Source: a virus. Taken from it: a stretch of 64,000 bases of DNA. A program made the translations under genes and the position numbers. The notes beneath the pieces are model-generated. The model was not told the origin of the DNA and did no database searches. It was given only the letters and a program-made list of their open reading frames with translations. Positions within the stretch are counted from its first letter, which is position 1. Each line of letters begins with the position of its first letter. Below, in pieces: positions 28,298 through 59,871 of the stretch. The stretch covers positions 1-64,000 of the IMG/VR virus record IMGVR_UViG_3300005613_000028; one strand, given 5' to 3'.

Positions 28298-28480
28298 TTA
28301 TTCTGAGAGCTTTTTTAAAACTTTATCAATTGATCCTAAAGTTAAATAAAGAGCCCAAACCTCTTCTTCTGATATAGCTTTAGTCATTGATATAAGTTTA
28401 CAGATACGTTTCATTAAGATTTCATTTATCAAGTTATTCTCCTTTATAACAAGTATAACATATAAATTAAGAGGTGTCAA
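28298..28480 (-). CDS. small hypothetical protein, with the track start probably too far upstream
   Basis: The track start at 28480 lies inside the promoter -35 box. A likelier start is TTG 28432, 6 nt after AAGGAG (28444-28439), giving about 44 aa. Confidence 0.4.
   Translation of the reverse strand: MTPLNLYVILVIKENNLINEILMKRICKLISMTKAISEEEVWALYLTLGSIDKVLKKLSE
28452..28480 (-). promoter_or_regulatory. sigma70-type promoter P1 (TTGACA-N17-TATACT, TGT extended -10)
   Basis: - strand reads TTGACACCTCTTAATTTATATGTTATACT. -35 at 28480-28475, -10 at 28457-28452. One of four near-identical copies. Confidence 0.75.
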
Positions 28481-28985
28481 TGGGTTTTCTTATTGCCCAA
28501 TCTCCAACCTTTTCATTTTTATTTAACTCTGAAAATTCATAAACGAGATTTCTTTTTTTACAAAATAATTCTACTCCAGCTTTTACTCTTGTTGGTTTTT
28601 TAGAAGTATAATCATGACCAGCTAATATACCACCTTTGTTAATCAAAGGCCACCACCAACCCATTTCCTTATATAAATATCCTGCAGAATGAATATTATC
28701 TAAATAAACATAATCAAACTTTAAATTCAAAATCTGAGTAGCTAGTTGACTTTCCATTTTCAATATATATACATTTTTTAAATCCATAACTTGACATGTC
28801 GTTTTTAAATTATCAAAAGCATTTTTATTATATTTTAAGTCCCAGGAATCAATTAGATATAACTGTTTTATAGTCAAATTTTTATAAAGTTCTTTAGAAT
28901 AATTACCACACATAACACCTACTTCAGCCACAGTTACTTTTTTATTTTTGAACTTTTCTTTTGCTAGTTGCAATGAATATCTCAT
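28467..28985 (-). CDS. class I SAM-dependent methyltransferase (Methyltransf_24-like)
   Basis: 'VAEVGVMCGNYS' (motif I), 'LYLIDSW', 'YVYLDNIHS' and 'GGILAGHDY'. Confidence 0.65.
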   Translation of the reverse strand: MRYSLQLAKEKFKNKKVTVAEVGVMCGNYSKELYKNLTIKQLYLIDSWDLKYNKNAFDNLKTTCQVMDLKNVYILKMESQLATQILNLKFDYVYLDNIHSAGYLYKEMGWWWPLINKGGILAGHDYTSKKPTRVKAGVELFCKKRNLVYEFSELNKNEKVGDWAIRKPIDTS

Positions 28986-28988
28986 AGT

Positions 28989-29651
28989 TTACTCCATTAT
29001 AATTGCTTTAGAGGTTGGTTTAGTTAAAATCTTTTTTGGGGTTATAGTAGAAATAAATTTATAATTATCATTCAAAGCCCTTTTTGTAAAAATAACATGA
29101 ATGGGAGTATCAACCATTTCTGCCAATGCTGTAGCCCATCCTTGTTGAGCTACTACTAATTTACATGAAGAAAACATTTTTACTAAATCCAAAAAAGGAT
29201 ATTTTTGTTTTAAATAAATCACATCAGAATATTTAGCAGTATAATCAGAAAATTCCTTGAATTTTGGAATTAAAGGAAAAGTTCCTTTTGCCCCATTCAT
29301 AGCATTATAAGGGGGTATAACAATCACTGTATTAAGCAAGGTTAAGTCAAGAAGACTTAGATATTTTAAAGAGCTTGTAAAAGGAAAATAAGGTAATTTA
29401 GCTCTATTTAACATATCTTCCCATTGTGTTGTGGTAAATAATCCTTTCCCTGATAAATATTGGCAATAATAGCTTACATTATTATACATTTTAGAATGTA
29501 AATCAGCAGTTTGAACAGGCAAATCTTTATATACTTCTGGATACTTTGTCAAAATCATGTAATCATTTGGGCGATTGGCCAATAACCATTCGACTATAAC
29601 TCTTAAATAAATAGCATCGCCAAAACCAGAAGCCCCTTTAACTATCTTCAT
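28989..29651 (-). CDS. glycosyltransferase-like protein (short GT9/heptosyltransferase-like)
   Basis: 'GASGFGDAIYLRVIVEWL' and C-terminal 'LVVAQQGWATALAEMVDTPIHVIF' resemble the N- and C-terminal GT9 motifs. At 220 aa it is shorter than typical GT9 enzymes. Confidence 0.4.
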   Translation of the reverse strand: MKIVKGASGFGDAIYLRVIVEWLLANRPNDYMILTKYPEVYKDLPVQTADLHSKMYNNVSYYCQYLSGKGLFTTTQWEDMLNRAKLPYFPFTSSLKYLSLLDLTLLNTVIVIPPYNAMNGAKGTFPLIPKFKEFSDYTAKYSDVIYLKQKYPFLDLVKMFSSCKLVVAQQGWATALAEMVDTPIHVIFTKRALNDNYKFISTITPKKILTKPTSKAIIME

Positions 29652-30327
29652 TTTCTTGAACCTTTTTAAATGCTTGGATTAAAAATTCATTCATTGATTG
29701 ATGTTTCATTTTATTAACTTCATAACCTTGTTTTCTTAAAAATTTAGCCATATATTCATTATACTCATGCGTTTCTAAAATATTAGTACATATATATAAT
29801 CTTTGGCTTTTTCTAATTGGAAGTTCTCTTAAAATTTGAAAATAATTAGAAATAATCCCTCTCCAAACATCAAAAGGTTTTTTATTAATATGTAAATCTA
29901 TTTGAGTATCATTTTTTAAAGAGATAATAGACTTATCATTAGAAATTGTAAAAATTTGATATTTGCATTGGATCATATTTTGAAATAAACCTTTAACTTT
30001 TGAATTATTTAAATGCTCCATTACATCAAAACTTGTAGCAACAGTATATCGCCTTAAATCTTTTTTTAATGTAATATCTCCTTGTTTACAAAATTTATTT
30101 TTAGGTTTAATCCAATCTATTCCATAAGCTTCAAATTTCTTTTTTCTAAAAAATTTAACAGTTTCCCCTGTCCCTGAACCTAAATCAATTATTTTTCCTT
30201 TTAAATAATCTTTGTAATGTGGATATAAACGAATACCAGGGCAATGAGAATACTTGGCTCTACCATAATCTTTTATTTCATCATAAACTTTTTCATATAA
30301 ATCGGCATTAATATCTACTTTATCCAC
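29638..30327 (-). CDS. class I SAM-dependent methyltransferase
   Basis: 'KIIDLGSGTGETVKFF' (motif I), 'AYGIDW' and 'SFDVMEHL'. Confidence 0.7.
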   Translation of the reverse strand: MDKVDINADLYEKVYDEIKDYGRAKYSHCPGIRLYPHYKDYLKGKIIDLGSGTGETVKFFRKKKFEAYGIDWIKPKNKFCKQGDITLKKDLRRYTVATSFDVMEHLNNSKVKGLFQNMIQCKYQIFTISNDKSIISLKNDTQIDLHINKKPFDVWRGIISNYFQILRELPIRKSQRLYICTNILETHEYNEYMAKFLRKQGYEVNKMKHQSMNEFLIQAFKKVQENEDS

Positions 30328-30920
30328 TTAATTGCCTTTCGTTGTTGTAAATAGGTAAGAATATTTTTTTCTTTATTTGGAGCATGTCCGCCTGAACCAT
30401 CCCATCTTTCATTAAGATTATGCACCCCAGAATCAAAACAATCAAAACCAATGATTGTAATTGGATTTTCAAATTTAAGGAAAAATAAGATGGAGGATAA
30501 TCCAACTGTAGGCATAAACCCACCTAATATCTCTATTTGCTCTAAAAGCTCTTCTTTTGTTAAACTAATTAATGGACAAAACCACCAATCTTTTCTTAAT
30601 TTATAAATCCATCTATAATCTTTATCTTGAATTTCACAATTTTTTAATAATTCAGTCATATCCGCATTAGGGCATTTATTAATTAGAAATTTAACTCCTT
30701 CTTCTATCAATTCTTCTTTACTCTTTTTTATATTTCTTCCAAAATAAGAAAAAAAGATGTCAGTTCTATCACTGTTCACCTTTTTATAATTATTAACTCT
30801 AACTATTATATCAAAAGAATCATACCATTCTTGATTCTTATTAATTGCAGAAGGAGCCCCTCCTACTATAAGAAGTTTTTTATTCTTAATAAAATCTATT
30901 AATTTATCTCTATTTCCCAT
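30315..30920 (-). CDS. glycosyltransferase-like protein (CstII/GT42-like or DUF115/Maf-like)
   Basis: 'KKLLIVGGAPSAINKNQEWYDSFDIIVRVNNY' parallels the N-terminus of CstII-type sialyltransferases (IIAGNGPSL..DVFRCNQFY). Confidence 0.45.
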   Translation of the reverse strand: MGNRDKLIDFIKNKKLLIVGGAPSAINKNQEWYDSFDIIVRVNNYKKVNSDRTDIFFSYFGRNIKKSKEELIEEGVKFLINKCPNADMTELLKNCEIQDKDYRWIYKLRKDWWFCPLISLTKEELLEQIEILGGFMPTVGLSSILFFLKFENPITIIGFDCFDSGVHNLNERWDGSGGHAPNKEKNILTYLQQRKAIKWIK

Positions 30921-31017
30921 TTAATTTCCTATGAAATTTAGTGTCACACCATTGACACTTTCCTTTTCTTTTCCACTTCTTATTAGGCATTTTTCTTTTA
31001 CAATATTTACATTTCAT
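30910..31017 (-). CDS. 35-aa Zn-ribbon micro-protein (not in ORF track)
   Basis: MKCKYCKRKMPNKKWKRKGKCQWCDTKFHRKLNGK. ATGA overlap with the upstream stop, and it overlaps the next start by 11 nt. Confidence 0.45.
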   Translation of the reverse strand: MKCKYCKRKMPNKKWKRKGKCQWCDTKFHRKLNGK

Positions 31018-31793
31018 ACAAATGGTTTCCTAAATTTTTCAATTAATTTTTCAATTTCTAAACTAGCTCGTTTTTGTAAAATATGTCTAGGTTCTTCTGC
31101 TAATATTTCAAAAAATTCATCATAAGTAATTTTTGGAAAAACTTCTATTTTAGATTTAGGAGACACATTAAAAATTTTAACATTTGGATTCACTTTTTTA
31201 AACTCATTATATAATTTAGCTGATGGTTTATTATAACAACCTGTATGATAGTTTCCTTTTTCATCTTTACCTATTCCACATTGCAACTTCCCAGAAGATT
31301 TTTTATATGTTCCAATTTTTTGTTTCCCTAAAATTTTCTTTTGGTAGAAATGAGTTTTACCATTAATCTCACAAAAATCCATTCCCAATAAATAAATTTC
31401 TTTAAAACCTAATGCTATACCTACAGTTAAAGCAAACATCCCTGTTAACACTCTGGAATAAAAACCTTTTTCCCAAGAATCTACACCATGATAATTTTTA
31501 CTTGTTTGAAGCATTGTTAAATTAGTACCTTTTTGACATTTATGGTGAGCTCCATTTCCAATCTTTCCATCAAACATTCCAATTACTAAATCATATTTAT
31601 CAAGTTCTTGTTTATTAGTTTTATAGAAACCCCAATCGCCATAAAACGGTACAACTGGCTTAAAGAAATAAATAATGGAATTGATGCCAAAAGTAACTTC
31701 ATTGGCTATTCGTTTCCAAAGAAATAAATCAATTCCTTCTTTCATAGAATTTCCAGCTCCCAAAATAATTAATCTGTTATTTTTTGGATTCAT
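31014..31793 (-). CDS. glycosyltransferase-like protein, paralogous in layout to 30315..30920
   Basis: 'NRLIILGAGNSMKEGI..VTFGINSIIYFF' has the same GxGxS / hydrophobic-N pattern. Confidence 0.4.
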   Translation of the reverse strand: MNPKNNRLIILGAGNSMKEGIDLFLWKRIANEVTFGINSIIYFFKPVVPFYGDWGFYKTNKQELDKYDLVIGMFDGKIGNGAHHKCQKGTNLTMLQTSKNYHGVDSWEKGFYSRVLTGMFALTVGIALGFKEIYLLGMDFCEINGKTHFYQKKILGKQKIGTYKKSSGKLQCGIGKDEKGNYHTGCYNKPSAKLYNEFKKVNPNVKIFNVSPKSKIEVFPKITYDEFFEILAEEPRHILQKRASLEIEKLIEKFRKPFV

Positions 31794-33983: not shown

Positions 33984-34200
33984 TTTTCTCTATTTCTATT
34001 CTTAAATTATTTATATTATGTTTAGAATTAAAAACACCTAATACTTCTTTAATGTCAAAAAATAACATTTGTAATGTAGTCAAACTATTTCTCAGATTAT
34101 AAGTATCATAAATATCTGTTTGCCTTTCTTCATAAACTCTTTTACCTTCTTCTGTTTCTAAAGTATAACCATTTTGAGTTTTTTCAATTGTTATTTTCAT
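33973..34200 (-). CDS. hypothetical protein (75 aa)
   Basis: ATGA overlap with the RNA ligase gene. Confidence 0.5.
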   Translation of the reverse strand: MKITIEKTQNGYTLETEEGKRVYEERQTDIYDTYNLRNSLTTLQMLFFDIKEVLGVFNSKHNINNLRIEIEKNED

Positions 34201-34856
34201 TTTAATCCTTTTGGTTTAGAATCATTCTTTATAGTCTTCTTAAATAATTGTCCAGAAGCTTTATGAAAAATCACAATTCCCTCGGCTGGTTTAAATCCTT
34301 CTACAGCATAGCTCCCATGTACTTCTAACTCTTTTAAAACCTCTTCAATTCTCTTAGTATCAAATAATCCTTCATAGAGAACAGGAACAACATAACAACA
34401 TTTAGGTCTAACTTCAGTGTTGCTCCATTTTTTTACATTAAAGAGATAAAATCTTTTATGGTTTAAACCATATTTAGCATTAATACCAGAACCCATCCAT
34501 TCTCCAAAATGTCTACCTTCTCCTAAGTTTAATAATTCTTCTGCATTTAGTTTAACCCATTTCGCAAACCCATGATTATCTCCTTTAGAAGAACAATCTA
34601 ACCATCTCTTCCTCGAACCTGCAAATACATAAAGAATATCATTTTCATCAGTCATAGCTAAAGTTTTATATAAACAATATTTATCAACAAACTCTTCCAT
34701 CTCTTCTTTTTGAGATTTATCACCTTCTCCATTAAAAGAAGCTAATAATTCTGAATATCTTATAATAATTACACTAGAATTACAGCCATGAATCTTCTCG
34801 GTAATAGTCATTTCTCTACTTAATCTTGGAATTTTATTGAACTTTTGAAAATCCAT
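34197..34856 (-). CDS. ATP-dependent RNA ligase-family nucleotidyltransferase (PF09414-like)
   Basis: Motif I 'TEKIHGCN' (KxxG lysine adenylylation site), 'FAGSRK' and 'EGIVIFH..FKKTIK' (motifs IV/V). Confidence 0.65.
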   Translation of the reverse strand: MDFQKFNKIPRLSREMTITEKIHGCNSSVIIIRYSELLASFNGEGDKSQKEEMEEFVDKYCLYKTLAMTDENDILYVFAGSRKRWLDCSSKGDNHGFAKWVKLNAEELLNLGEGRHFGEWMGSGINAKYGLNHKRFYLFNVKKWSNTEVRPKCCYVVPVLYEGLFDTKRIEEVLKELEVHGSYAVEGFKPAEGIVIFHKASGQLFKKTIKNDSKPKGLK

Positions 34857-34864
34857 AAATGCTC

Positions 34865-35086
34865 CTATAAATATTTTTCTTCCCTAACTCTTAAAGGTAG
34901 ATTGTTTAAAAATTTTTCTCTAATTCTCTTATCTTTTAATTCTTCCATACTTTTACTTTCGTCATCTGCTCTAACATGATAATAACCAGCAATACAGCCA
35001 CAAGCGAAAGAACAAAAATAATATTTATCTTCTAAGTTACAATGACAAGATAAACATTTTTTATCAGGATTCAGTGGTTTCATCAT
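34865..35086 (-). CDS. Cys-rich small protein (73 aa)
   Basis: 'CLSCHC..CSFACGC'. Confidence 0.45.
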   Translation of the reverse strand: MMKPLNPDKKCLSCHCNLEDKYYFCSFACGCIAGYYHVRADDESKSMEELKDKRIREKFLNNLPLRVREEKYL

Positions 35087-35375
35087 TTTTCCTTAAACTA
35101 TCTAAAAAATCAATAGTATCAACTTGAATACTATAATATTCTTTCTTATCTTTAGTATGATAATCTAATTTCCCATCTATTAAAACTTTACTAGCCTTTT
35201 GTAATACCTTTTGACATCTTTCAGCTAATTCTCTAAATGTCACTACATTAATAAAAGTAGTTTTCTTTTTTCCATGATTAATAGCTATTCTAAATCTACA
35301 TAATTGTCTTCCAGTTTTATCAATTTGAAAAGTAGGATTATCAATTAACCTTCCAGTTACAATTATCTTATTCAT
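35064..35375 (-). CDS. ssb: single-stranded DNA-binding protein (OB fold, no acidic tail)
   Basis: 'MNKIIVTGRLIDNPTFQ..GRQLCRFRIAIN..TTFINVVTFRELAE..KVLIDGKL' follows the bacterial SSB pattern. Confidence 0.75.
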   Translation of the reverse strand: MNKIIVTGRLIDNPTFQIDKTGRQLCRFRIAINHGKKKTTFINVVTFRELAERCQKVLQKASKVLIDGKLDYHTKDKKEYYSIQVDTIDFLDSLRKNDETTES

Positions 35376-36243
35376 CTAAACTCTCCTGTATTAAATTTTT
35401 AACCTCTTTATTTTTAACTGTTTCTTTCAAAAACTTATTAAATATATCACTAAAACTCTTCCCTTTCTTAACTACCTTCTTTTTCTCTACTTTTTGAGTA
35501 TAATCATGCTTGATCTTGAAAGTATGAAATTTCTTCTTTAATTCAGGAAGTTTATTAACATTCTTTAAATATTTCTCAAATGACTTAAAAACAAGCCTTA
35601 ATTTCGTTCTAGGAGGCATTTTAAGAGCTTTTGAGACAGAATCAACCTCAGCCATAGGGATAGCTGTTTGAACATCACAGAAGTCAACTGAGCCACTCTC
35701 AGGGGTTAATATGGCGTACTTTGGCACTCCTGCCTCTAATTCATTGAACGAAATGCGTCTAATTGAGCCCAAATGATAAACATTATCACAATATTTATGG
35801 AATTTGTGGAAATGACCGAATAAAGTTAAATCATACTTTTTTGATAATTCCTCAACTTTAAACCTTCCATCTCTACAAAATTCTTCGCCTTGGTCAAAAA
35901 AACAATGACCGATTCCCAATTTAAATTTACCTAACATAACTAAAGATTCACCTTGATGCAAGGTAACACCAATATGTTGAAGATACTGTAATGCATTAGT
36001 AGTCTTAGCTGATTCTTCATGATTACCCACTACGATGTCCACTTCGCCTTTTTTTAACATTTCTGTTATAAGCCAAGTAAAAAAATCAATTTCTTTAGAA
36101 GTTGGGGATTTTCTGTTAAAGCAATCACCAAGAAAAATTACTCTATCGAAATCTTTATTGAAATAAATTTCCTCAAAGATTTCTTTTATTTCAGGGATAG
36201 ATTTTTCTGTAATATGGAGGTCTCCGTAAACAGCGACTTTCAT
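35368..36243 (-). CDS. Mre11/SbcD-like (T4 gp47-like) nuclease, metallophosphoesterase
   Basis: 'VAVYGDLHIT', 'VIFLGDCFNR', 'VVGNHEE' and 'FGHFHKFH'. Lies close to the Rad50-like gene. Confidence 0.75.
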   Translation of the reverse strand: MKVAVYGDLHITEKSIPEIKEIFEEIYFNKDFDRVIFLGDCFNRKSPTSKEIDFFTWLITEMLKKGEVDIVVGNHEESAKTTNALQYLQHIGVTLHQGESLVMLGKFKLGIGHCFFDQGEEFCRDGRFKVEELSKKYDLTLFGHFHKFHKYCDNVYHLGSIRRISFNELEAGVPKYAILTPESGSVDFCDVQTAIPMAEVDSVSKALKMPPRTKLRLVFKSFEKYLKNVNKLPELKKKFHTFKIKHDYTQKVEKKKVVKKGKSFSDIFNKFLKETVKNKEVKNLIQESLDE

Positions 36244-46263: not shown

Positions 46264-46902
46264 TTAAATCTCCAATTCAATAGGTTTATTTACTAAGTTA
46301 TAATAACCATCCATAAGAGAACAATTAATATAAGTTGTATGTTCGTCTTGATAAATGCCCATCGACTCATGTATATGCCCACATACTACTAATTTAGGTT
46401 TAATTTCTTTTATTCTATCCTTTAAAGCTATACTTCCTGTATTTTCTTTAAAAGTGCCATTCGCATAATACACTTGGTCTAAAATCCCATGAGGGGGAGC
46501 GTGAGAAATAATAATATCTGTATTATCAGGAATCTTAGAATAAATTTTAGCAAGTTCAATTTCAGGTTTCATGAACGCCCAATCATTGAAAGGTGTACTA
46601 AAAGGAGAGCCCCAAATCTTTAATCCCTCAATTTCAATTGAATTATTAAAAAGATAAGTGCAACAATTTAGAATATCACAAATAGAATGATAATTTAATT
46701 TCTCTAATTGAAAATCGTGGTTGCCACCTATTGCTACGATATGAGTTGCTTTTTCTTTCCATTTATAAAAAACAGCATTTAATTGTTCTAAATGATCTAA
46801 AGTTCTAATATCATAATCACCAGCACAAAACAAAATATCACATTCTGGTATTTCAATATTATTTTCTTCCATATGAGAATCTGCTAAACAACAAATTTTC
46901 AT
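46264..46902 (-). CDS. calcineurin-like metallophosphoesterase (candidate RNA/DNA 3'-end phosphatase)
   Basis: 'CCLADSHME', 'FCAGDYD', 'IGGNHD', 'IISHAPP' and 'VCGHIHE'. Start overlaps the stop of the kinase gene. Confidence 0.7.
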   Translation of the reverse strand: MKICCLADSHMEENNIEIPECDILFCAGDYDIRTLDHLEQLNAVFYKWKEKATHIVAIGGNHDFQLEKLNYHSICDILNCCTYLFNNSIEIEGLKIWGSPFSTPFNDWAFMKPEIELAKIYSKIPDNTDIIISHAPPHGILDQVYYANGTFKENTGSIALKDRIKEIKPKLVVCGHIHESMGIYQDEHTTYINCSLMDGYYNLVNKPIELEI

Positions 46903-47390
46903 TATTTCACCTTTATTATTCTGTTAATCCCTTCTTCTAAAGTGGGAATTTCATATATTTTATCAAATCTTTCCCAAACTTCTTCCCAAATTTTTCTATC
47001 AGGTTGACCATGAGGATTTTTTAACCTTCTATTAACACTTTCTTTTTTACTTAATCTTGGTAAAATAACAGCCAATACTTTATATCCATATTTTTTAGCT
47101 AATTTAATAGTAGGTTCTCTTAATTTTTTATTTACATTAACCTCATCATAAACAATATCAATTCCATCTTTTAAAAATTCTTCTAATAATGCTAGAGTAC
47201 CTTTTTTAATAGTAGGCTCTAAATCAATGTTAAATATATAATCTCCAGCCCCTACCATGTAACGGATAGCATCTCTGGAAATAATTCTATAACCAGCTTT
47301 AGCCCATTTTTTAGCTAAAGTAGACTTTCCCGAAGCTATATTTCCTGTTAACAAAATTAAAGTTTTCATTTTTTCCTCATACAGGTACAT
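46902..47390 (-). CDS. P-loop polynucleotide kinase-like protein
   Basis: 'LILLTGNIASGKSTLAKKW..IISRDAIR' parallels the T4 Pnk kinase domain (GxPGSGKST..NRDDxR). The likely true start is ATG 47369 (GAGG upstream, ATGA coupling). Confidence 0.65.
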   Translation of the reverse strand: MYLYEEKMKTLILLTGNIASGKSTLAKKWAKAGYRIISRDAIRYMVGAGDYIFNIDLEPTIKKGTLALLEEFLKDGIDIVYDEVNVNKKLREPTIKLAKKYGYKVLAVILPRLSKKESVNRRLKNPHGQPDRKIWEEVWERFDKIYEIPTLEEGINRIIKVK

Positions 47391-48406: not shown

Positions 48407-48970
48407 TTACTCCTTAAATTTGAAATATTCTATTTCTTTTTTACAATATTTATTAACTTCTTCTAACGCTTTTGGTGTATAATAAGATTTCCAATCATAT
48501 TTTCCATAAAAATGAGTTAATTTATTCTTTAAAGGTAATTTAAATTTTGTATCTCCAAATACTTTAGCAATTTGTGTAGTTAAGCCATTTTTATCATATA
48601 TAATTATCTTATTTGCTACAATTTTATCATCAATACTAATATAATCTAATTGATTAAATAATAACTCTTTATGTGCAAACTTTAAAACAAAATCTTCAAA
48701 AGTCTTAAATGATTCAGATTTCTTAATCATACATCTAAATCTATATAAACTAACCAATCTTTCATAAGTATTTCTAACGATGGTTACTATATTCCAATTT
48801 TTATATTTTTTATAAATTTCAGTATTAATTTGTGTATGGGTCTTTTGATATACTCCCCATTGTTTTTTATTTATTTTTCCATAATTTAGAAAAACTGCCC
48901 CACCATTTTTAGGAATATGAATAAATAGAATTTTTTCTTTTGGATATACTAGCATTATCTTAACCACCAA
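48407..48970 (-). CDS. sulfotransferase (Sulfotransfer_2-like)
   Basis: PAPS 5'-phosphosulfate loop 'FIHIPKNGGAVF' and 'IVRNTYERLVSLY' (RNPxxRxxSxY-type). The likely true start is ATG 48955. Confidence 0.65.
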   Translation of the reverse strand: MVVKIMLVYPKEKILFIHIPKNGGAVFLNYGKINKKQWGVYQKTHTQINTEIYKKYKNWNIVTIVRNTYERLVSLYRFRCMIKKSESFKTFEDFVLKFAHKELLFNQLDYISIDDKIVANKIIIYDKNGLTTQIAKVFGDTKFKLPLKNKLTHFYGKYDWKSYYTPKALEEVNKYCKKEIEYFKFKE

Positions 48971-56496: not shown

Positions 56497-56646
56497 TCAT
56501 TTTTCACTTTTAGTTTCAAAGAATTCTACTTTAAAAGATATTCCTTTTACAAATCCTACCGAAAATTCAAAGAGTTTTAGATAAGAAAGTTTTAATACTC
56601 TATTGAGAACTCTAAAAAATAAACTCTCTTTTTTAGTTTTCTTCAT
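56497..56646 (-). CDS. 49-aa hypothetical micro-protein (not in ORF track)
   Basis: MKKTKKESLFFRVLNRVLKLSYLKLFEFSVGFVKGISFKVEFFETKSEK. TAATG overlap upstream. Confidence 0.35.
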   Translation of the reverse strand: MKKTKKESLFFRVLNRVLKLSYLKLFEFSVGFVKGISFKVEFFETKSEK

Positions 56647-56810
56647 TATTCTTCCTCTTGAATTGGAACGCAGGAAATATGATAGGTTTTCCTAATTTTT
56701 TCACTTAAATAAGTTTCAGTAATCTCAGCGTACTTTTCTCCGAGATTAATACGTTCTTTGCACTCAATACAGTACAAATCATCTCTATCATCGTTGTATT
56801 TTACTTTCAT
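56646..56810 (-). CDS. 54-aa CxxC micro-protein (not in ORF track)
   Basis: MKVKYNDDRDDLYCIECKERINLGEKYAEITETYLSEKIRKTYHISCVPIQEEE. ATGA overlap with the upstream stop. Confidence 0.4.
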   Translation of the reverse strand: MKVKYNDDRDDLYCIECKERINLGEKYAEITETYLSEKIRKTYHISCVPIQEEE

Positions 56811-57181
56811 TTCTTACTACTTCCTTTCTTCTCTTTTTCTAATAATAATTTGAATAAATAAGCTTGAGCATTAAACAGTAAGGCGCAAATACTTTCTTCT
56901 AAATCATCTTGCCCTTCATATCCTCTATGTTGAAGCCACATATCAAAAAAATGACGATAACATGATTTCATACATACATTTAAATGCTCTTCACCAAATA
57001 AATTTTGCCAATTATCAGAATCCCTTAAATTTCCATCAGATTGTACTCTGTGTTTATTCATATATTCAGAATATCTACGCATTACTAAAGGGCTATAAAA
57101 CCCCTCGAAATCTAATTTTCCTTCATTTGAATCTCTGGTAGCACCTGAACTAAACTGCCTGATTTTATTTTTCTTGACCAT
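56807..57181 (-). CDS. dATP/dGTP diphosphohydrolase N-terminal-domain-like protein
   Basis: 'FSSGATRDSNEGKLDFEGFYSPLVMRRYSEYMNKHR..NLRDSDNWQ' resembles the F.tGA.RD...gK.r.dL.sP pattern of PF18909-type phage proteins. Confidence 0.45.
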   Translation of the reverse strand: MVKKNKIRQFSSGATRDSNEGKLDFEGFYSPLVMRRYSEYMNKHRVQSDGNLRDSDNWQNLFGEEHLNVCMKSCYRHFFDMWLQHRGYEGQDDLEESICALLFNAQAYLFKLLLEKEKKGSSKK

Positions 57182-58767
57182 TACTTTGAACCTTTCTTTA
57201 CTTTTAATTTATATTTCTTATCTAAAAAATCTAATAATTGTGATTGATTTGGAAAAAAGTCCCCTCCGCTTCCAAATACCCAACCAACAAAACTTTCTGG
57301 GTATTCTTCTCTTCTCATTGTTTGAATAACATAAATTGGTTTTTTTAATTTACGACAATAGCCAGCTTCATAAAATGTCCCACAATTATGTACAATAAAT
57401 CCATTAGCTATAAAATTTCCTGTTCCTGTTGTTAAATCATAGACATTTTTACGTGAGGAAATAGAACTTTTTATTTTTGAACTTAACCCAGATAAATATA
57501 ATTGATAATTTTTTCTTTTGTAATCGAATTGTGTTGGTATAAAAAATGCATAAGATTTTGCAATTGAAAAAATATATTCTCCGCTTCCATTAAGTTTTCT
57601 TCCAAATATACTACATGGTTTATTTCTTTTTTGAACCGAAAATTTTATATTTAAATCATTACAATATTTTTTAAATATTTTTCTATTTTTAATATGAACT
57701 TTAGCTTGAGAATATCGGATGCTCCATTTATCATAATATCCATCTGCATCTATAGCTCCTGCAAGCCATCCCCTCTTAAAATCAAATGAAAGTGGGTGAT
57801 TATCTTTCCAATCTCTTAATTCAAAATAATATTTCTTTTTACTGACTATTAAAATATAATGATATTTTTTACTGTTTTCACAAAATCTTTTAGATATTGT
57901 TGATGTAATACCAAATATCTCATATATTTCTTGCACTTTTTTTATTTCATGTAACTTATCTGTTACAATAATAACTTGATGTGAAGACCAACTTTCTTGA
58001 AAACATCCATCATTCTGTAAATAACCTGTCAACCATCCTTTTAAATATGTTTTTGATATTGGCATTTGTTTTATACTAAAAACATTATTTATATTTTGTA
58101 CTTCTTTATAAATACTTCCATGTTTCTTATTTCTAGTTAAAAATTTATGTTCTGGAGTGGCATAAATAGTATTATTTTTATTATCATTGATTTTTAAACA
58201 TTTCTTAAATCCTGATTTTTGAGAATTATAAACTTTTGTTTTTACCAATTTTGTCTTATTTTTTAATTTTTTAAATCCTAAAACTTCATCTCCGACTTTA
58301 ACATCTTGAATATTTTTTTGTGACCAATCTGACATTAAAACTTTTGTATTTTTTGCTAAACAAGGCGAATCTCCAGCATCTATTTTACAAATTAAAAAGT
58401 TACTCTGTTCAACGTAAAAATCATCGCCTGGAATTATTTTCAAAAAGGGTTTATTATTTTCATCTAAATAAATATAATGTTTCCCTTCCCAAATTAAATC
58501 CGACCCTTCTGCCACTTTATCATTATGCCCAGAATTCAACCAACCATTTATTTTTTTATGGTATTCTAACGGATTTAATCCAACTTTAGACTGCTCTGCA
58601 GTACAAGGATTAAAAATATAGATAGGATTATCATTTTCATCTATACGTTTTTCTAATTCAATTTGTAAAGATTCCCTCCAACCTGCACCTCCATCTTTGG
58701 CTTTAGTTTTACTCATCGCTCCAATTAAATAAGTTTTAAGCCAATTATTTATAATTATTTCTTTCAT
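57181..58767 (-). CDS. nucleoside 2-deoxyribosyltransferase-like protein interrupted by an intein
   Basis: Exteins (135 + 67 aa): 'TYLIGAMS..GWRESL..FLICKIDAGDSP' | 'CGTFYEAGYCRKLKKPIYVIQ' align with the paralog 58805..59332 ('VYLAGIMLG..DWRYKI..IIVANFNQFGSKRPSVGTYFECGMALAFNKPLILI'). Confidence 0.7.
   Translation of the reverse strand: MKEIIINNWLKTYLIGAMSKTKAKDGGAGWRESLQIELEKRIDENDNPIYIFNPCTAEQSKVGLNPLEYHKKINGWLNSGHNDKVAEGSDLIWEGKHYIYLDENNKPFLKIIPGDDFYVEQSNFLICKIDAGDSPCLAKNTKVLMSDWSQKNIQDVKVGDEVLGFKKLKNKTKLVKTKVYNSQKSGFKKCLKINDNKNNTIYATPEHKFLTRNKKHGSIYKEVQNINNVFSIKQMPISKTYLKGWLTGYLQNDGCFQESWSSHQVIIVTDKLHEIKKVQEIYEIFGITSTISKRFCENSKKYHYILIVSKKKYYFELRDWKDNHPLSFDFKRGWLAGAIDADGYYDKWSIRYSQAKVHIKNRKIFKKYCNDLNIKFSVQKRNKPCSIFGRKLNGSGEYIFSIAKSYAFFIPTQFDYKRKNYQLYLSGLSSKIKSSISSRKNVYDLTTGTGNFIANGFIVHNCGTFYEAGYCRKLKKPIYVIQTMRREEYPESFVGWVFGSGGDFFPNQSQLLDFLDKKYKLKVKKGSK
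57385..58362 (-). mobile_element. 326-aa intein with a LAGLIDADG homing endonuclease domain
   Basis: Block A 'CLAKNTKVLM', block B 'ATPEHKF', two LAGLIDADG motifs 'LKGWLTGYLQNDGCF' and 'KRGWLAGAIDADGYY', block G 'GFIVHN' followed by +1 Cys (57382-57384). Confidence 0.85.
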
Positions 58768-58804
58768 AATTTAAGTCCTTAATCAATTGCTCTACAAATT
58801 TTTA

Positions 58805-59332
58805 TTATAATTCCCAATTATATATAGCTGAATTCGTTCTTTTATAAAACCAATTCAAAATTTTTGAATCTAAAAATTCATCAACACTTTTATAAATTTC
58901 TACAGCCTGTGAAGTGAAAGGATGATTATTCCATCTTTCAAATTCATTTTCTGGTACAATTAAAATAAGGGGTTTATTAAATGCTAACGCCATACCACAT
59001 TCAAAATAAGTTCCTACACTTGGCCTTTTACTACCAAATTGATTGAAATTCGCAACAATAATATCAGCTTTTTTAATAGCTAGTTTATCTCCAGCATATA
59101 TAACTTTTCCAGAAATTTTGTTATTTGTTAATCCTTCATTATCAATCTCAGCATCAACTTCTCCATTCCAAGGGTCTAAGAAACAAATTTCATAAACACC
59201 TTTTCCTTTCCAATTTTTATAATGCTTACGAATTTTATATCTCCAATCTACTGTAGGTTTTTGATATTCACCACCTAACATAATACCAGCTAAATAAACG
59301 TGCATTATAGTTTTTGGAATTTCTTTAAGCAT
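58805..59332 (-). CDS. nucleoside 2-deoxyribosyltransferase-like protein (intein-free paralog)
   Basis: 'VYLAGIMLG', 'DWRYKI', 'ADIIVANF' and 'SVGTYFECGMALAFNKPLILI' fit the NDT/Rcl-like Rossmann pattern with the conserved Glu. Confidence 0.6.
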   Translation of the reverse strand: MLKEIPKTIMHVYLAGIMLGGEYQKPTVDWRYKIRKHYKNWKGKGVYEICFLDPWNGEVDAEIDNEGLTNNKISGKVIYAGDKLAIKKADIIVANFNQFGSKRPSVGTYFECGMALAFNKPLILIVPENEFERWNNHPFTSQAVEIYKSVDEFLDSKILNWFYKRTNSAIYNWEL

Positions 59333-59576
59333 CTATATCTCCATTAGTTTCTCTAGCTTCATTTTCTCTCTTATCTAAAAACCTTCTTTTAAATTCATCC
59401 GCACAATGTTGGACAGCATAAGTGCAATCATGCAATGAACTATATCTATATTCTCTTATTGACATATACTGTTTCATTAATTTAAATACTGCATATTCCA
59501 ATTGACCTTTTGTTTTAAACTTAGGCATTTCGTTCAAAACTATATCAAAATCCCTTCTTTCTTTTATATATGGCAT
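59325..59576 (-). CDS. hypothetical protein (83 aa)
   Basis: ORF in the operon, C-terminal '..NGDIDA'. Confidence 0.5.
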   Translation of the reverse strand: MPYIKERRDFDIVLNEMPKFKTKGQLEYAVFKLMKQYMSIREYRYSSLHDCTYAVQHCADEFKRRFLDKRENEARETNGDIDA

Positions 59577-59842: not shown

Positions 59843-59871
59843 AGTATAACATATTAATTGTTAGGTGTCAA
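59843..59871 (-). promoter_or_regulatory. sigma70-type promoter P3
   Basis: - strand reads TTGACACCTAACAATTAATATGTTATACT. -35 at 59871-59866 lies inside the last codons of ORF 59861..60181, -10 at 59848-59843. Confidence 0.75.

What the first reader, a model, noticed from the sequence alone, without database searches (positions are those of the whole stretch)
56807..59332. Intein-split nucleoside-deoxyribosyltransferase-like gene next to an intact paralog and a dNTP-diphosphohydrolase-like gene
Three consecutive - strand genes look like nucleotide- or base-handling enzymes. ORF 56807..57181 is dATP/dGTP-diphosphohydrolase-N-domain-like. ORFs 57181..58767 and 58805..59332 are NDT/Rcl-like Rossmann proteins. 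The first NDT-like gene carries a 326-aa LAGLIDADG intein at 57385-58362, with CLAKNT..(two LAGLIDADG motifs)..VHN|C. The intein sits directly in front of the family's conserved GT.(F/Y)E.G catalytic-Glu motif. Aligning the neighbouring paralog shows this: 'RPSVGTYFECG' lines up with 'GDSP|CGTFYEAG'. Inteins usually target essential active sites, so this protein probably matters to the phage. NDT-like folds cleave or transfer N-glycosidic bonds. Two such paralogs plus a dNTP pyrophosphatase, in a phage that also carries methyl-, glycosyl- and sulfo-transferases, suggest two possible roles. One is an uncharacterised DNA base exchange or hypermodification route. The other is degradation of nucleotide pools or signals as counter-defence. 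I do not recognise this gene combination as a described system.
Basis: partly seen in the sequence, partly recalled or inferred. Interest (0 to 1): 0.78.

Follow-up and report, generated by a model that had tools for sequence, protein, structure and literature searches.

The report
Intein-split nucleotide-cleaving gene module in phage
An uncultivated phage carries a conserved gene set that probably breaks selected DNA building blocks down to free base and sugar-phosphate, and one of its enzymes is interrupted at its active site by a self-splicing, mobile protein insert that recurs at the same spot in many related phages.

Summary
ORF 57181-58767 (-) holds a canonical 326-aa class-1 LAGLIDADG intein at 57385-58362. 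About 70 uninterrupted ~200-aa homologs (up to 90% identity) are collinear across the junction GDxP|CGTxxE. The 202-aa extein belongs to an undescribed NDT-superfamily branch with an intact Tyr13/Asp115/Glu141 triad, and the intein sits 5 residues before the Glu. ORF 58805-59332 is a true paralog (PF05014 above threshold) with a hydrolase-type Ser at Glu-6. ORF 56807-57181 is a divergent PF18909/DUF5664 member: it has no Pfam hit of its own, and support comes only from family-level comparisons.

First, the intein is not a one-off. At least 17 other full-length alleles and four fragments carry it at the identical site, as do about a third of the family's 50%-identity clusters, in a homing-like pattern. 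Second, the pairing is no longer undescribed. Poubanne et al. (NAR 2026) showed that DUF5664 or DutZ (dNTP to dNMP) works with the NDT-like DmtZ (dAMP to adenine) in PurZ0 Z-genome phages. Here the NDT-like gene and a DUF5664-type gene are linked in 16 of 20 related loci, with no PurZ or DpoZ. The likeliest function is a dNTP to dNMP to base + dR5P cascade whose substrate is unknown.

The parts
59325..59576 (-). DUF6899 gene (83 aa). It overlaps the start of the NDT paralog by 8 nt and recurs next to the module in several relatives. Function unknown.
   Evidence: PF21840 50.5 bits, above the cut-off of 27. Homologs lie beside the NDT-like gene in L022-L024 and L028, and nearby in L009, L019 and L026.
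58805..59332 (-). Intact NDT-superfamily paralog ('NDT175', 175 aa). Triad Tyr13 (59294-59296), Asp82 (59087-59089), Glu111 (59000-59002). Ser105 sits at Glu-6 (59018-59020), which is the hydrolase type.
   Evidence: PF05014 42.2 bits, above 28.8. PDB sequence hits: TbNDT 2.5e-5, YtoQ 3.8e-5, BlsM 2e-4, CMP N-glycosidase 8e-4. Family alignment A3. Coordinates verified.
58363..58767 (-). N-extein (135 aa) of the interrupted NDT-like gene. Contains Tyr13 (58729-58731), the DGGxGWR motif, a ~45-residue family-specific insert and Asp115 (58423-58425).
57385..58362 (-). Class-1 intein (326 aa) with a LAGLIDADG homing-endonuclease domain. Elements: Cys1, block B TPEH (58147-58158), LAGLIDADG motif 1 LKGWLTGYLQNDG (58006-58044), motif 2 RGWLAGAIDADG (57739-57774), block F VYDLTTGTGNFIANG, terminal His-Asn.
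   Evidence: Pfam PF14890, PF14528 and PF05203. NCBIfam intein N- and C-terminal regions. Motifs and coordinates. GC 23.7% against ~30% in the exteins. Absent from ~70 collinear homologs.
57181..57384 (-). C-extein (67 aa plus stop). It starts with the +1 Cys136, which is a native conserved residue, followed by the GT..E motif with catalytic Glu141 (57367-57369).
56807..57181 (-). Divergent DUF5664/PF18909-type gene (124 aa), a candidate (d)NTP pyrophosphohydrolase. Its ATG overlaps the TAA stop of the NDT-like gene (TAATG).
   Evidence: No Pfam hit of its own. 20 of 30 family members hit PF18909. hhalign to the classical branch: 87.5%, E 3.6e-6. Proteins in L002, L009, L018 and L020 bridge the two branches. 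Stop/start overlap. Model pLDDT 82, with only weak all-alpha NTP-PPase fold hits.
56646..56810 (-). Small Cys-containing ORF (54 aa) that overlaps ORF 56807 by 4 nt and is conserved downstream of the module in relatives. Function unknown.
   Evidence: tblastn hits in L002, L009, L018, L019, L025 and L026. ORF list.
59843..59871 (-). Sigma-70-like promoter match (TTGACA-17-TATACT with TG) upstream of the co-directional gene run. This is a consensus match only.
   Evidence: No terminator-like site occurs on the - strand until ~56086-56066.

Best explanation
This is a co-transcribed phage nucleotide-pool module in which one gene has been invaded by a mobile intein. Step 1 (inferred): the DUF5664-type protein (56807-57181) hydrolyses one or more (d)NTPs to (d)NMP + PPi. 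Step 2 (inferred): the two paralogous NDT-superfamily enzymes cleave the N-glycosidic bond of nucleoside 5'-monophosphates, giving free base + (deoxy)ribose 5-phosphate, or possibly move the sugar-phosphate to another base. Each has an intact Tyr/Asp/Glu triad. Together they would remove or recycle a particular nucleotide irreversibly during infection. Step 3 (shown by sequence): the second NDT-like gene is translated as a 528-aa precursor. A class-1 intein sits between Pro135 and Cys136, at the N-terminus of the helix that carries the catalytic Glu141. Cys1, TxxH, His-Asn and the native +1 Cys should excise the intein and ligate the exteins into the 202-aa enzyme seen uninterrupted in related phages. 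The LAGLIDADG domain spreads the element by cutting the conserved GGnGAT nnn CCn|TGY GGn ACn target in intein-free alleles. The identity of the nucleotide substrate is not known.
For: Intein: HMM hits above their cut-offs, all canonical blocks present, and exact collinearity of the spliced product with ~70 intein-free homologs. Homing: 17 other full-length alleles (P0197-P0208, plus P0219, P0220, P0234 and P0235 at the family level) and four fragments (P0047, P0209, P0226, P0227), all at the identical site where the junction can be read. Among the 12 alleles compared pairwise, the intein is more conserved than its extein in 11 (for example 71% against 50%), while the closest exteins (90% identity) have no intein. 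8 of 24 cluster representatives of the family proper are intein-bearing. NDT fold and triad: model pLDDT 93.2; the top PDB hits are MilB, YtoQ, NDTs and DNPH1; viral hits are phage NDT-family proteins, including a Gordonia phage Ghobes NDT-fold protein. Tyr13, Asp115 and Glu141 are invariant in 28 sequences and align to Tyr13/Asp82/Glu111 of the PF05014 paralog. The paralog's Asp82 aligns to the triad position of TbPDT, and its RPSVGT..E matches the Ser-type pocket of the nucleotide hydrolases BlsM and CMP N-glycosidase, not the PDCGT..E of transferases (rule from PMC12884076). Linkage: a DUF5664-type gene lies within 1.4 kb downstream on the same strand in 16 of 20 distinct related loci. PF18909 is the commonest Pfam family among 150 neighbour ORFs (13 hits, best 4e-28). 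Wayne's characterised DUF5664 hits these neighbours at E down to 3e-15. Precedent: Wayne DUF5664 converts dATP/dGTP/dUTP to dNMP, and DmtZ converts dAMP to adenine + dR5P. Operon signs: TAATG and ATGA overlaps, and no internal terminator.
Against: There are no biochemical data for any of these proteins. The window's ORF 56807 has no Pfam hit of its own and lacks the KYG and GEDxD motifs that are invariant or nearly so in the classical branch, so its pyrophosphatase activity is uncertain. Its fold search gave no significant hit; the best was HisE at E 0.52. Neither NDT-like protein shows sequence similarity to DmtZ. The extein has Pro, not Ser, at Glu-6, so a phosphorylated substrate is not established for it. 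NDT175 accompanies the module in only 9 of 20 loci, and 3 to 4 loci lack a detectable DUF5664 gene. Splicing and endonuclease activity are inferred from motifs only.
Confidence: 0.6

Rival explanations
1. Base-replacement or hypermodification pathway. As in PurZ0 phages, the pyrophosphatase and one NDT-like hydrolase would purge a canonical dNTP, while the other paralog transfers deoxyribose 5-phosphate onto a non-canonical base, so that the virion DNA carries a modified base.
For: There is a direct mechanistic precedent: DmtZ is both a dAMP hydrolase and a dR5P transferase to 2-aminoadenine, and it is paired with DUF5664 or DutZ. Two diverged paralogs could divide the hydrolase and transferase roles. 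The phage encodes several methyltransferases and transferase-like genes elsewhere.
Against: tblastn with Wayne PurZ0 found no PurZ/PurA homolog in the window or in any related locus. No Pfam-detectable base-synthesis gene (thymidylate-synthase-like, PurA, queuosine-type) appears in the ~76 kb of the contig examined or in the neighbourhood census. The polymerase is family B, not DpoZ. NDT175 is missing from about half of the related loci.
Confidence: 0.15
2. Classical nucleoside salvage. Both proteins would be nucleoside 2-deoxyribosyltransferases that swap bases between deoxynucleosides to re-balance precursors for a 28%-GC genome, and ORF 56807 would be unrelated house-cleaning.
For: PF05014 is the top Pfam family for both proteins. 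The best PDB sequence match of the NDT175 family profile is the T. brucei transferase. The genome is AT-rich at ~28% GC.
Against: NDT175 has Ser, not the Asp or Asn that binds the 5'-OH in transferases, at Glu-6 (rule). The conserved partner produces dNMPs, not nucleosides. No deoxynucleoside kinase recurs in the neighbourhood; PRK appears in only 2 of 150 ORFs.
Confidence: 0.12
3. Counter-defence. The NDT-like proteins, whose fold is related to TIR and SLOG domains, would degrade or sequester host immune signalling nucleotides or NAD-derived signals rather than DNA precursors.
For: The extein family profile's best PDB sequence hit is a ThsB TIR protein, although it is not significant (E 0.039). 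DprA, ShosA and SLOG-type folds appear lower in the fold list.
Against: PADLOC gave no meaningful hit. The top fold matches are all NDT, DNPH1 or MilB enzymes with the NDT-type Tyr/Asp/Glu triad conserved. The genes sit among replication and recombination genes and are linked to a dNTP-pyrophosphatase family.
Confidence: 0.06

Closest known systems
DmtZ + DUF5664-1 / DutZ nucleotide-pool enzymes of PurZ0 Z-genome phages (Gordonia phage Ghobes, Arthrobacter phage Wayne; Poubanne et al., NAR 2026, PMC12884076)
   Same: An NDT-superfamily enzyme with a Tyr/Asp(Asn)/Glu triad is encoded next to a stand-alone DUF5664/PF18909-type protein in a phage replication module. DUF5664 genes beside the NDT-like gene in related phages are clear homologs of Wayne gp51 (E down to 3e-15). 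A Ghobes NDT-fold protein, possibly its DmtZ, appears among the viral fold hits.
   Different: No PurZ0/PurZ and no DpoZ; the polymerase here is PolB. There is no detectable sequence similarity to DmtZ. Two paralogous NDT-like genes are present instead of one. The NDT-like protein has a ~45-residue insert and a DGGxGWR motif. The window's DUF5664 copy is a divergent subtype that lacks KYG and GEDxD. An intein is present. The substrate is unknown.
DNPH1/Rcl, MilB, BlsM and BcmB: (deoxy)nucleoside 5'-monophosphate N-glycosidases of the NDT superfamily
   Same: Same fold (the top Foldseek hits). The catalytic Glu lies in GT..E-type motifs. NDT175 has a small, uncharged Ser-type residue at Glu-6, as in BlsM and the CMP N-glycosidase.
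   Different: Sequence similarity is marginal (E 1e-4 to 0.1). The extein family falls below the PF05014 threshold and has Pro at Glu-6. These proteins occur in a phage context.
Class-1 LAGLIDADG inteins at catalytic sites of phage replication and nucleotide-metabolism genes (for example in RNR, helicases, terminases and thymidylate synthase)
   Same: Cys1, TxxH, HN|Cys+1, two LAGLIDADG motifs, insertion in the most conserved active-site motif, and a sporadic homing-like distribution.
   Different: The host gene family (NDT-like) was not found in the searchable literature as an intein host. The nearest other inteins (25-39% identity, one of them over only part of the intein) are in radical-SAM-type and PF07505 genes.

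Membership tests
Class-1 intein with LAGLIDADG homing endonuclease | N-terminal Cys/Ser nucleophile (block A) and a TxxH block B | tested here: met
   Cys1 in CLAKNT; T69-P-E-H72 at window 58147-58158.
Class-1 intein with LAGLIDADG homing endonuclease | C-terminal His-Asn followed by a +1 Cys/Ser/Thr extein residue | tested here: met
   FIVHN|C. The +1 Cys136 is the native conserved residue in intein-free homologs.
Class-1 intein with LAGLIDADG homing endonuclease | Hint/splicing-domain and LAGLIDADG HMMs above curated thresholds | tested here: met
   PF14890 51.4 against 35.8; PF14528 44.7 against 22.5; TIGR01443 29.2 against 15.6. TIGR01445 at 22.5 is just under its 24.5 cut-off.
Class-1 intein with LAGLIDADG homing endonuclease | In-frame insertion that is absent from orthologs, with collinear exteins | tested here: met
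   About 70 uninterrupted homologs align without a gap across the junction.
Class-1 intein with LAGLIDADG homing endonuclease | Protein splicing and endonuclease (homing) activity | not testable with these tools
   Only indirect evidence: both LAGLIDADG motifs keep an acidic residue, and the distribution is sporadic and incongruent between intein and extein.
NDT superfamily (PF05014; NDT, DNPH1, MilB) | Pfam PF05014 match above the gathering score | tested here: met
   Met for the paralog 58805-59332 (42.2 against 28.8). Not met for the spliced extein (19.6 against 28.8). Some extein homologs carry precomputed PF05014 hits.
NDT superfamily (PF05014; NDT, DNPH1, MilB) | NDT-type alpha/beta fold | tested here: met
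   Extein model pLDDT 93.2. The top PDB hits are MilB, YtoQ, NDT and DNPH1 (E 3e-4 to 2e-3, TM normalised to target 0.6-0.71), with ~50 extra residues.
NDT superfamily (PF05014; NDT, DNPH1, MilB) | Catalytic triad Tyr / Asp(Asn) / Glu | tested here: met
   Extein Y13, D115 and E141 are invariant in 28 sequences. They align to NDT175 Y13, D82 and E111. NDT175 aligns to TbPDT, BlsM and YtoQ at these positions. The mapping comes from profile alignment, not from superposition of coordinates.
NDT superfamily (PF05014; NDT, DNPH1, MilB) | 5' pocket: Asp/Asn indicates a nucleoside transferase; a small uncharged residue or Ser indicates a nucleotide hydrolase | tested here: inconclusive
   NDT175 has Ser105 at Glu-6, like BlsM PSPGT and 4jen VSPGT, whereas transferases have PDCGT. 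The extein has Pro135 at Glu-6 and an invariant Asp133 at Glu-8. Rule taken from PMC12884076.
DUF5664 / PF18909 (dATP/dGTP diphosphohydrolase N-terminal domain) | Pfam PF18909 match | tested here: not met
   The window protein has no hit at E<=1. At family level, 20 of 30 homologs hit PF18909 (best 3.9e-6), and hhalign to the classical branch gives 87.5%, E 3.6e-6.
DUF5664 / PF18909 (dATP/dGTP diphosphohydrolase N-terminal domain) | Conserved motifs of the classical branch (KYG..NW..G, RH, W.GEDxD) | tested here: inconclusive
   NW, RH and W are retained. KYG and GEDxD are absent and replaced by an invariant QSDGxxRDSDNW.
DUF5664 / PF18909 (dATP/dGTP diphosphohydrolase N-terminal domain) | dNTP pyrophosphohydrolase activity | not testable with these tools
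   Shown only for Wayne gp51 (PMC12884076).
PurZ0-type Z-genome (2-aminoadenine) system | PurZ/PurZ0 2-aminoadenylosuccinate synthetase present | tested here: not met
   tblastn with Wayne PurZ0 found nothing at E<1 in the window or in 28 related loci. No PF00709 in the precomputed or run Pfam scans. About 10.6 kb of the 87-kb contig was not examined.
PurZ0-type Z-genome (2-aminoadenine) system | DpoZ (family A polymerase) and a DmtZ ortholog | tested here: not met
   The polymerase is family B. There is no sequence similarity to Wayne DmtZ, only shared fold.

The most novel reading that the evidence does not exclude
The conserved NDT-like + DUF5664 module (with or without the second NDT paralog) could be the core of an undiscovered, PurZ-independent base-exclusion or base-exchange pathway in a widespread group of uncultivated ~85-100 kb phages. 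One enzyme pair would destroy a canonical dNTP, and the paralog would load deoxyribose 5-phosphate onto a non-canonical base, giving virion DNA with a replaced base. A further possibility is that splicing of the active-site intein (Cys1/Cys+1) gates when the enzyme becomes active.
Probability: 0.12. Interest if true: 0.85.

Novelty: new variant of a known kind. Interest (0 to 1): 0.52.

Why it matters
If the proposed cascade is right, the two-step dNTP to dNMP to free base route, shown experimentally only in 2-aminoadenine (Z-genome) phages, is a broader phage strategy that also operates without PurZ. It would then mark a group of uncultivated phages that are worth testing for nucleotide-pool exclusion or non-canonical DNA. 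The finding also defines an NDT-superfamily branch with no Pfam, PHROG or GenBank-phage representation, and a previously unreported, recurrent intein insertion site at its catalytic motif. That site gives a natural series of intein-bearing and intein-free alleles for studying homing in phage populations.

Tried and rejected
- GenBank phage searches. blastn of the region and tblastn of the extein and of NDT175 against 50,697 phage records found nothing. ORF 56807 gave one hit, in an uncultured phage.
- PHROGs gave nothing for the extein or ORF 56807. NCBIfam gave only intein models and a weak YtoQ hit.
- The extein family profile against PDB sequences gave nothing significant: ThsB 0.039, triosephosphate isomerase noise, NDT 0.65. 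Fold search was needed instead.
- The ORF 56807 profile against PDB sequences and its model against PDB folds gave no significant hit, only a non-significant enrichment of HisE/MazG-type proteins.
- Direct comparison with Wayne DmtZ-DutZ found no similarity.
- Z-genome membership is rejected: no PurZ or DpoZ.
- A defence or counter-defence assignment is rejected for lack of any PADLOC signal.
- A literature search for an intein in a deoxyribosyltransferase gene returned only incidental co-mentions. YtoQ papers were uninformative.
- I considered whether the 528-aa ORF could be a gene fusion or an assembly chimera. I rejected this because 17 independent full-length alleles from other samples share the same architecture and junctions.


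Full report
**1. Observation**

Cutting the 528-aa product at CLAKNT and at VHN|C gives a 135-aa N-extein, a 326-aa insert (window 57385-58362) and a 67-aa C-extein.

The insert passes Pfam Intein_splicing (51.4 bits, cut-off 35.8) and LAGLIDADG_3 (44.7 bits, cut-off 22.5), with weaker Hom_end_hint and Hint hits. NCBIfam places intein N- and C-terminal splicing regions at residues 136-211 and 442-462.

All canonical class-1 elements are present:
- Cys1.
- Block B TPEH.
- Two LAGLIDADG motifs, LKGWLTGYLQNDG and RGWLAGAIDADG, each with an acidic residue.
- Block F.
- Terminal His-Asn followed by the +1 Cys.

The intein is more AT-rich than its host gene: 23.7% GC against about 30% in the exteins.

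**2. Independent validation of the boundaries**

The spliced 202-aa extein retrieves 75 proteins from the 5.8-billion-sequence collection. Most are ~200 aa and uninterrupted, at up to 90% identity. In a 28-sequence alignment they run without a gap across the junction, with consensus GDxPCGTFxEAG. The +1 Cys is therefore a native, conserved residue. This rules out a fusion or an assembly artefact.

**3. What the exteins are**

The intact neighbour 58805-59332 ('NDT175') passes PF05014 (42.2 bits against 28.8). By sequence it matches solved NDT-superfamily structures: T. brucei NDT, YtoQ, BlsM, a CMP N-glycosidase and Rcl/DNPH1.

The extein alone is sub-threshold for PF05014 (19.6 bits), and its family profile finds nothing significant in PDB sequences. 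Three other lines support the assignment:
- A high-confidence model (pLDDT 93.2, pTM 0.88) has MilB, YtoQ, bacterial NDTs and DNPH1 as its top PDB fold matches (E 3e-4 to 2e-3, TM normalised to the target 0.6-0.71).
- Its top viral matches are phage NDT-family proteins. Two are Gordonia phage proteins of 145 and 161 aa (Archimedes and Ghobes) that are annotated as dUTPase but fold like NDTs. The Ghobes one may be its DmtZ; I did not verify that identity.
- Profile-profile comparison of the extein family with the NDT175 family gives 96.2% probability (E 2.5e-9, 145 columns). It aligns Tyr13 with Tyr13, the GWR motif with DWR, Asp115 with Asp82, and Glu141 with Glu111.

Tyr13, Asp115 and Glu141 are invariant in all 28 extein-family sequences. 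The extein family differs from classical NDTs by a ~45-residue insert (helices plus a beta-hairpin, residues ~55-112) and a DGGxGWR motif. The intein sits between Pro135 and Cys136, at the N-terminus of the helix carrying Glu141. The unspliced precursor should therefore be inactive; this is an inference.

**4. Hydrolase or transferase**

According to PMC12884076, NDT transferases stabilise the 5'-OH with an Asp or Asn, while the nucleotide hydrolases and DmtZ have small uncharged residues there that leave room for a 5'-phosphate. NDT175 has RPS-V-GT..E, with Ser at Glu-6, like BlsM (PSPGT) and the CMP N-glycosidase 4jen (VSPGT). The transferases 2a0k and 6qai have PDCGT. This favours a nucleoside-monophosphate N-glycosidase for NDT175. 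The extein has Pro at Glu-6 and an invariant Asp at Glu-8, so its substrate class stays open.

**5. ORF 56807**

ORF 56807 has no Pfam, PHROG or NCBIfam hit of its own. Its family is large (165 proteins). Family-level evidence links it to PF18909:
- 20 of 30 sampled members hit PF18909 (best 3.9e-6).
- The related phages L002 and L003 have a precomputed PF18909 gene downstream of the NDT-like gene, separated from it by two small ORFs.
- Proteins in L002, L009, L018 and L020 hit both the window-type HMM and the biochemically characterised DUF5664 of Arthrobacter phage Wayne.
- hhalign of the window-type family against the classical branch gives 87.5% (E 3.6e-6) over 74 columns.

The window subtype keeps the NW, RH and W motifs. 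It lacks the KYG and GEDxD motifs of the classical branch and has its own invariant QSDGxxRDSDNW. Its model (pLDDT 82) is a three-helix bundle. Its best fold hits are not significant, although they are enriched for HisE/MazG-type all-alpha NTP pyrophosphohydrolases. I therefore treat it as a divergent DUF5664-family protein whose activity is plausible but unproven.

**6. Genomic context and linkage**

The window is part of an 87-kb metagenome contig (ENA ERZ27256772, k141_2609403) from a tailed phage of ~28% GC. The phage encodes:
- PolB, Prim-Pol and a RecA/DnaB-like ATPase.
- SSB and DNA ligase.
- An RNA-repair-like gene set.
- ClpP and several methyltransferases.

It has no relative among GenBank phages at the DNA level.

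Across 23 IMG/VR loci and two other long contigs, which make 20 distinct loci:
- The ~200-aa NDT-like gene is followed within 1.4 kb on the same strand by a DUF5664-type gene in 16 loci.
- It is preceded by an NDT175 homolog in 9 loci.

A Pfam census of 150 neighbouring ORFs from 18 loci has PF18909 as the most frequent family (13 hits, best 4e-28). The rest are replication and recombination genes. No thymidylate-synthase-like gene, PurA or glycosyltransferase recurs.

In the window the genes are tightly packed. The stop and start overlap as TAATG between the NDT-like gene and ORF 56807. Overlaps of 4 and 8 nt occur on either side of the module. A near-consensus promoter lies upstream at 59871-59843, and no terminator-like site follows until ~56086.

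**7. Comparison with the literature**

Poubanne et al. (NAR 2026, PMC12884076) showed three things about PurZ0 Z-genome phages:
- DutZ, or the stand-alone DUF5664 protein of phage Wayne, hydrolyses dATP, dGTP and dUTP to dNMPs.
- The NDT-like DmtZ hydrolyses dAMP to adenine + deoxyribose 5-phosphate.
- DmtZ also transfers dR5P to 2-aminoadenine.

This locus is not a member of that system, for three reasons:
- tblastn with Wayne PurZ0 finds nothing in the window or in any related locus.
- The polymerase is family B.
- Neither NDT-like protein resembles DmtZ in sequence.

It works like that system but belongs to different protein lineages and has a different, unknown purpose.

**8. The intein is recurrent**

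A search with the intein alone found 12 more full-length alleles (510-559 aa) and one fragment. A second fragment, P0047, had already appeared. The exhaustive profile search found further alleles: P0219, P0220, P0234 and P0235, plus the fragment P0227, all at the same site, and the fragment P0226, which breaks off just past the site and whose junction I could not read. Every allele whose junction could be read has GDxP|C...(F/I)(I/V/T)HN|CG(T/S)xxE.

These inteins are 40-71% identical to the window's intein, while their exteins are only 32-65% identical. In 11 of the 12 alleles compared pairwise the intein is the more conserved part, yet the closest exteins (90% identity) carry no intein. Of the 24 cluster representatives of the family proper (E<=1e-30 among 1.84 billion representatives), 6 are full-length intein-bearing and 2 are fragments that break off just past the insertion site. 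This is the sporadic, incongruent pattern expected from homing.

Related observations:
- More distant family members carry inteins at other positions, for example P0256 at ...QDP|C.
- More distant relatives of this intein (25-39% identity, the 39% over only a quarter of its length) sit in a radical-SAM gene, three PF07505 genes and others.
- One contig ends within a base of the insertion site (L030), as expected if assembly broke at an intein presence/absence polymorphism.
- One relative has an in-frame deletion that removes the Asp115 segment (L026), so the gene is dispensable at least sometimes.
- No paper in the searchable library reports an intein in a deoxyribosyltransferase-family gene.

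**9. Verdict**

The intein call is essentially certain, and the NDT-superfamily assignment of both neighbours is strong. The assignment of ORF 56807 is moderate.

The best-supported mechanism is a dNTP to dNMP to base + sugar-phosphate cascade, with one enzyme requiring protein splicing for maturation (confidence about 0.6). The substrate, and hence the biological purpose, is unknown. It could be pool sanitation, exclusion of a canonical nucleotide, or salvage. A PurZ-independent base-replacement pathway remains possible (about 0.12-0.15) and would be the interesting outcome.

Novelty: a new variant of a known kind of system, combined with a new host family and insertion site for a standard intein type.

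Noticed in passing
L002:9717-10019 and L003:8076-8378: In intein-free relatives, a 100-aa ORF with a faint NUMOD1 hit overlaps the start of the NDT-like gene. It looks like a free-standing homing-endonuclease-like gene at the same locus, which suggests the locus attracts mobile endonucleases of more than one type.
   Followed up: no
P0075 (173 aa, 1275-bp ENA contig): The first ~58 residues are the NDT-like family N-terminus. The rest is a sulfotransferase domain (PF13469) with a PAPS-binding-like motif. This is either a real fusion or recombinant, or a chimeric assembly.
   Followed up: no
L030:2836-3240 (P0073): This contig ends one base after the codon that precedes the intein insertion site (...GDGP|). 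That is consistent with an assembly break caused by co-existing intein-bearing and intein-free alleles in the sample.
   Followed up: partly
L026:5977-6396: The NDT-like gene carries an in-frame deletion of residues ~66-130, including the catalytic Asp segment. The flanking NDT175 and DUF5664 genes are intact, so this looks like a decayed copy.
   Followed up: partly
P0256, P0257, P0268 (distant NDT-like family members): These carry intein-sized inserts at positions other than the main site. P0256 is at ...QDP|CLEGNT...IVHN|CKTEP, which may correspond to the conserved FNP|C motif. P0257 and P0268 are after about residue 112-116. The family appears to have several intein insertion points.
   Followed up: partly
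P0211, P0213, P0214, P0217 (relatives of the intein): Relatives of this intein (28-39% identity; P0217's 39% covers only a quarter of the intein) interrupt a radical-SAM gene with a QueE-like N-terminus (CEIFESVQGEG...CNLNCRWC|) and three PF07505 (phage Gp37/Gp68-type) genes, directly after a Cys-rich motif.
   Followed up: no
window 46264-47390 and 34197-36243: An AAA_33-type kinase plus a Metallophos phosphoesterase (46264-47390), and an RNA ligase (34197-34856) with a second Metallophos gene (35368-36243). Together they resemble a Pnkp/Rnl-type RNA repair set.
   Followed up: no
window 28467-31793 and 48407-48970: A cluster of Methyltransf_24 (28467-28985), Methyltransf_23 (29638-30327) and a weak MptE-like/CST-I sialyltransferase-like protein (31014-31793), plus a weak sulfotransferase-like gene (48407-48970). 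Their targets (DNA, glycan or protein) are unknown.
   Followed up: partly
L031:2227-2586 (same contig, outside the window): A 119-aa protein with weak DprA (DNA_processg_A) and YAcAr hits. This is another SLOG/NDT-related Rossmannoid protein in the same phage. A Glycos_transf_1 gene lies at L031:5583-6617.
   Followed up: no
L018:12087-12374: A stretch with 36% identity to the first 94 residues of the window's intein lies in a different gene of a related phage, so related inteins occupy other genes in this phage group.
   Followed up: no
window 56807-57181 versus L002:11051-11440 and others: Two sequence subtypes of DUF5664-type protein occupy the position downstream of the NDT-like gene in different phages. 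The window subtype replaces the KYG and GEDxD motifs with an invariant QSDGxxRDSDNW. This could reflect a change of substrate or of metal site.
   Followed up: partly
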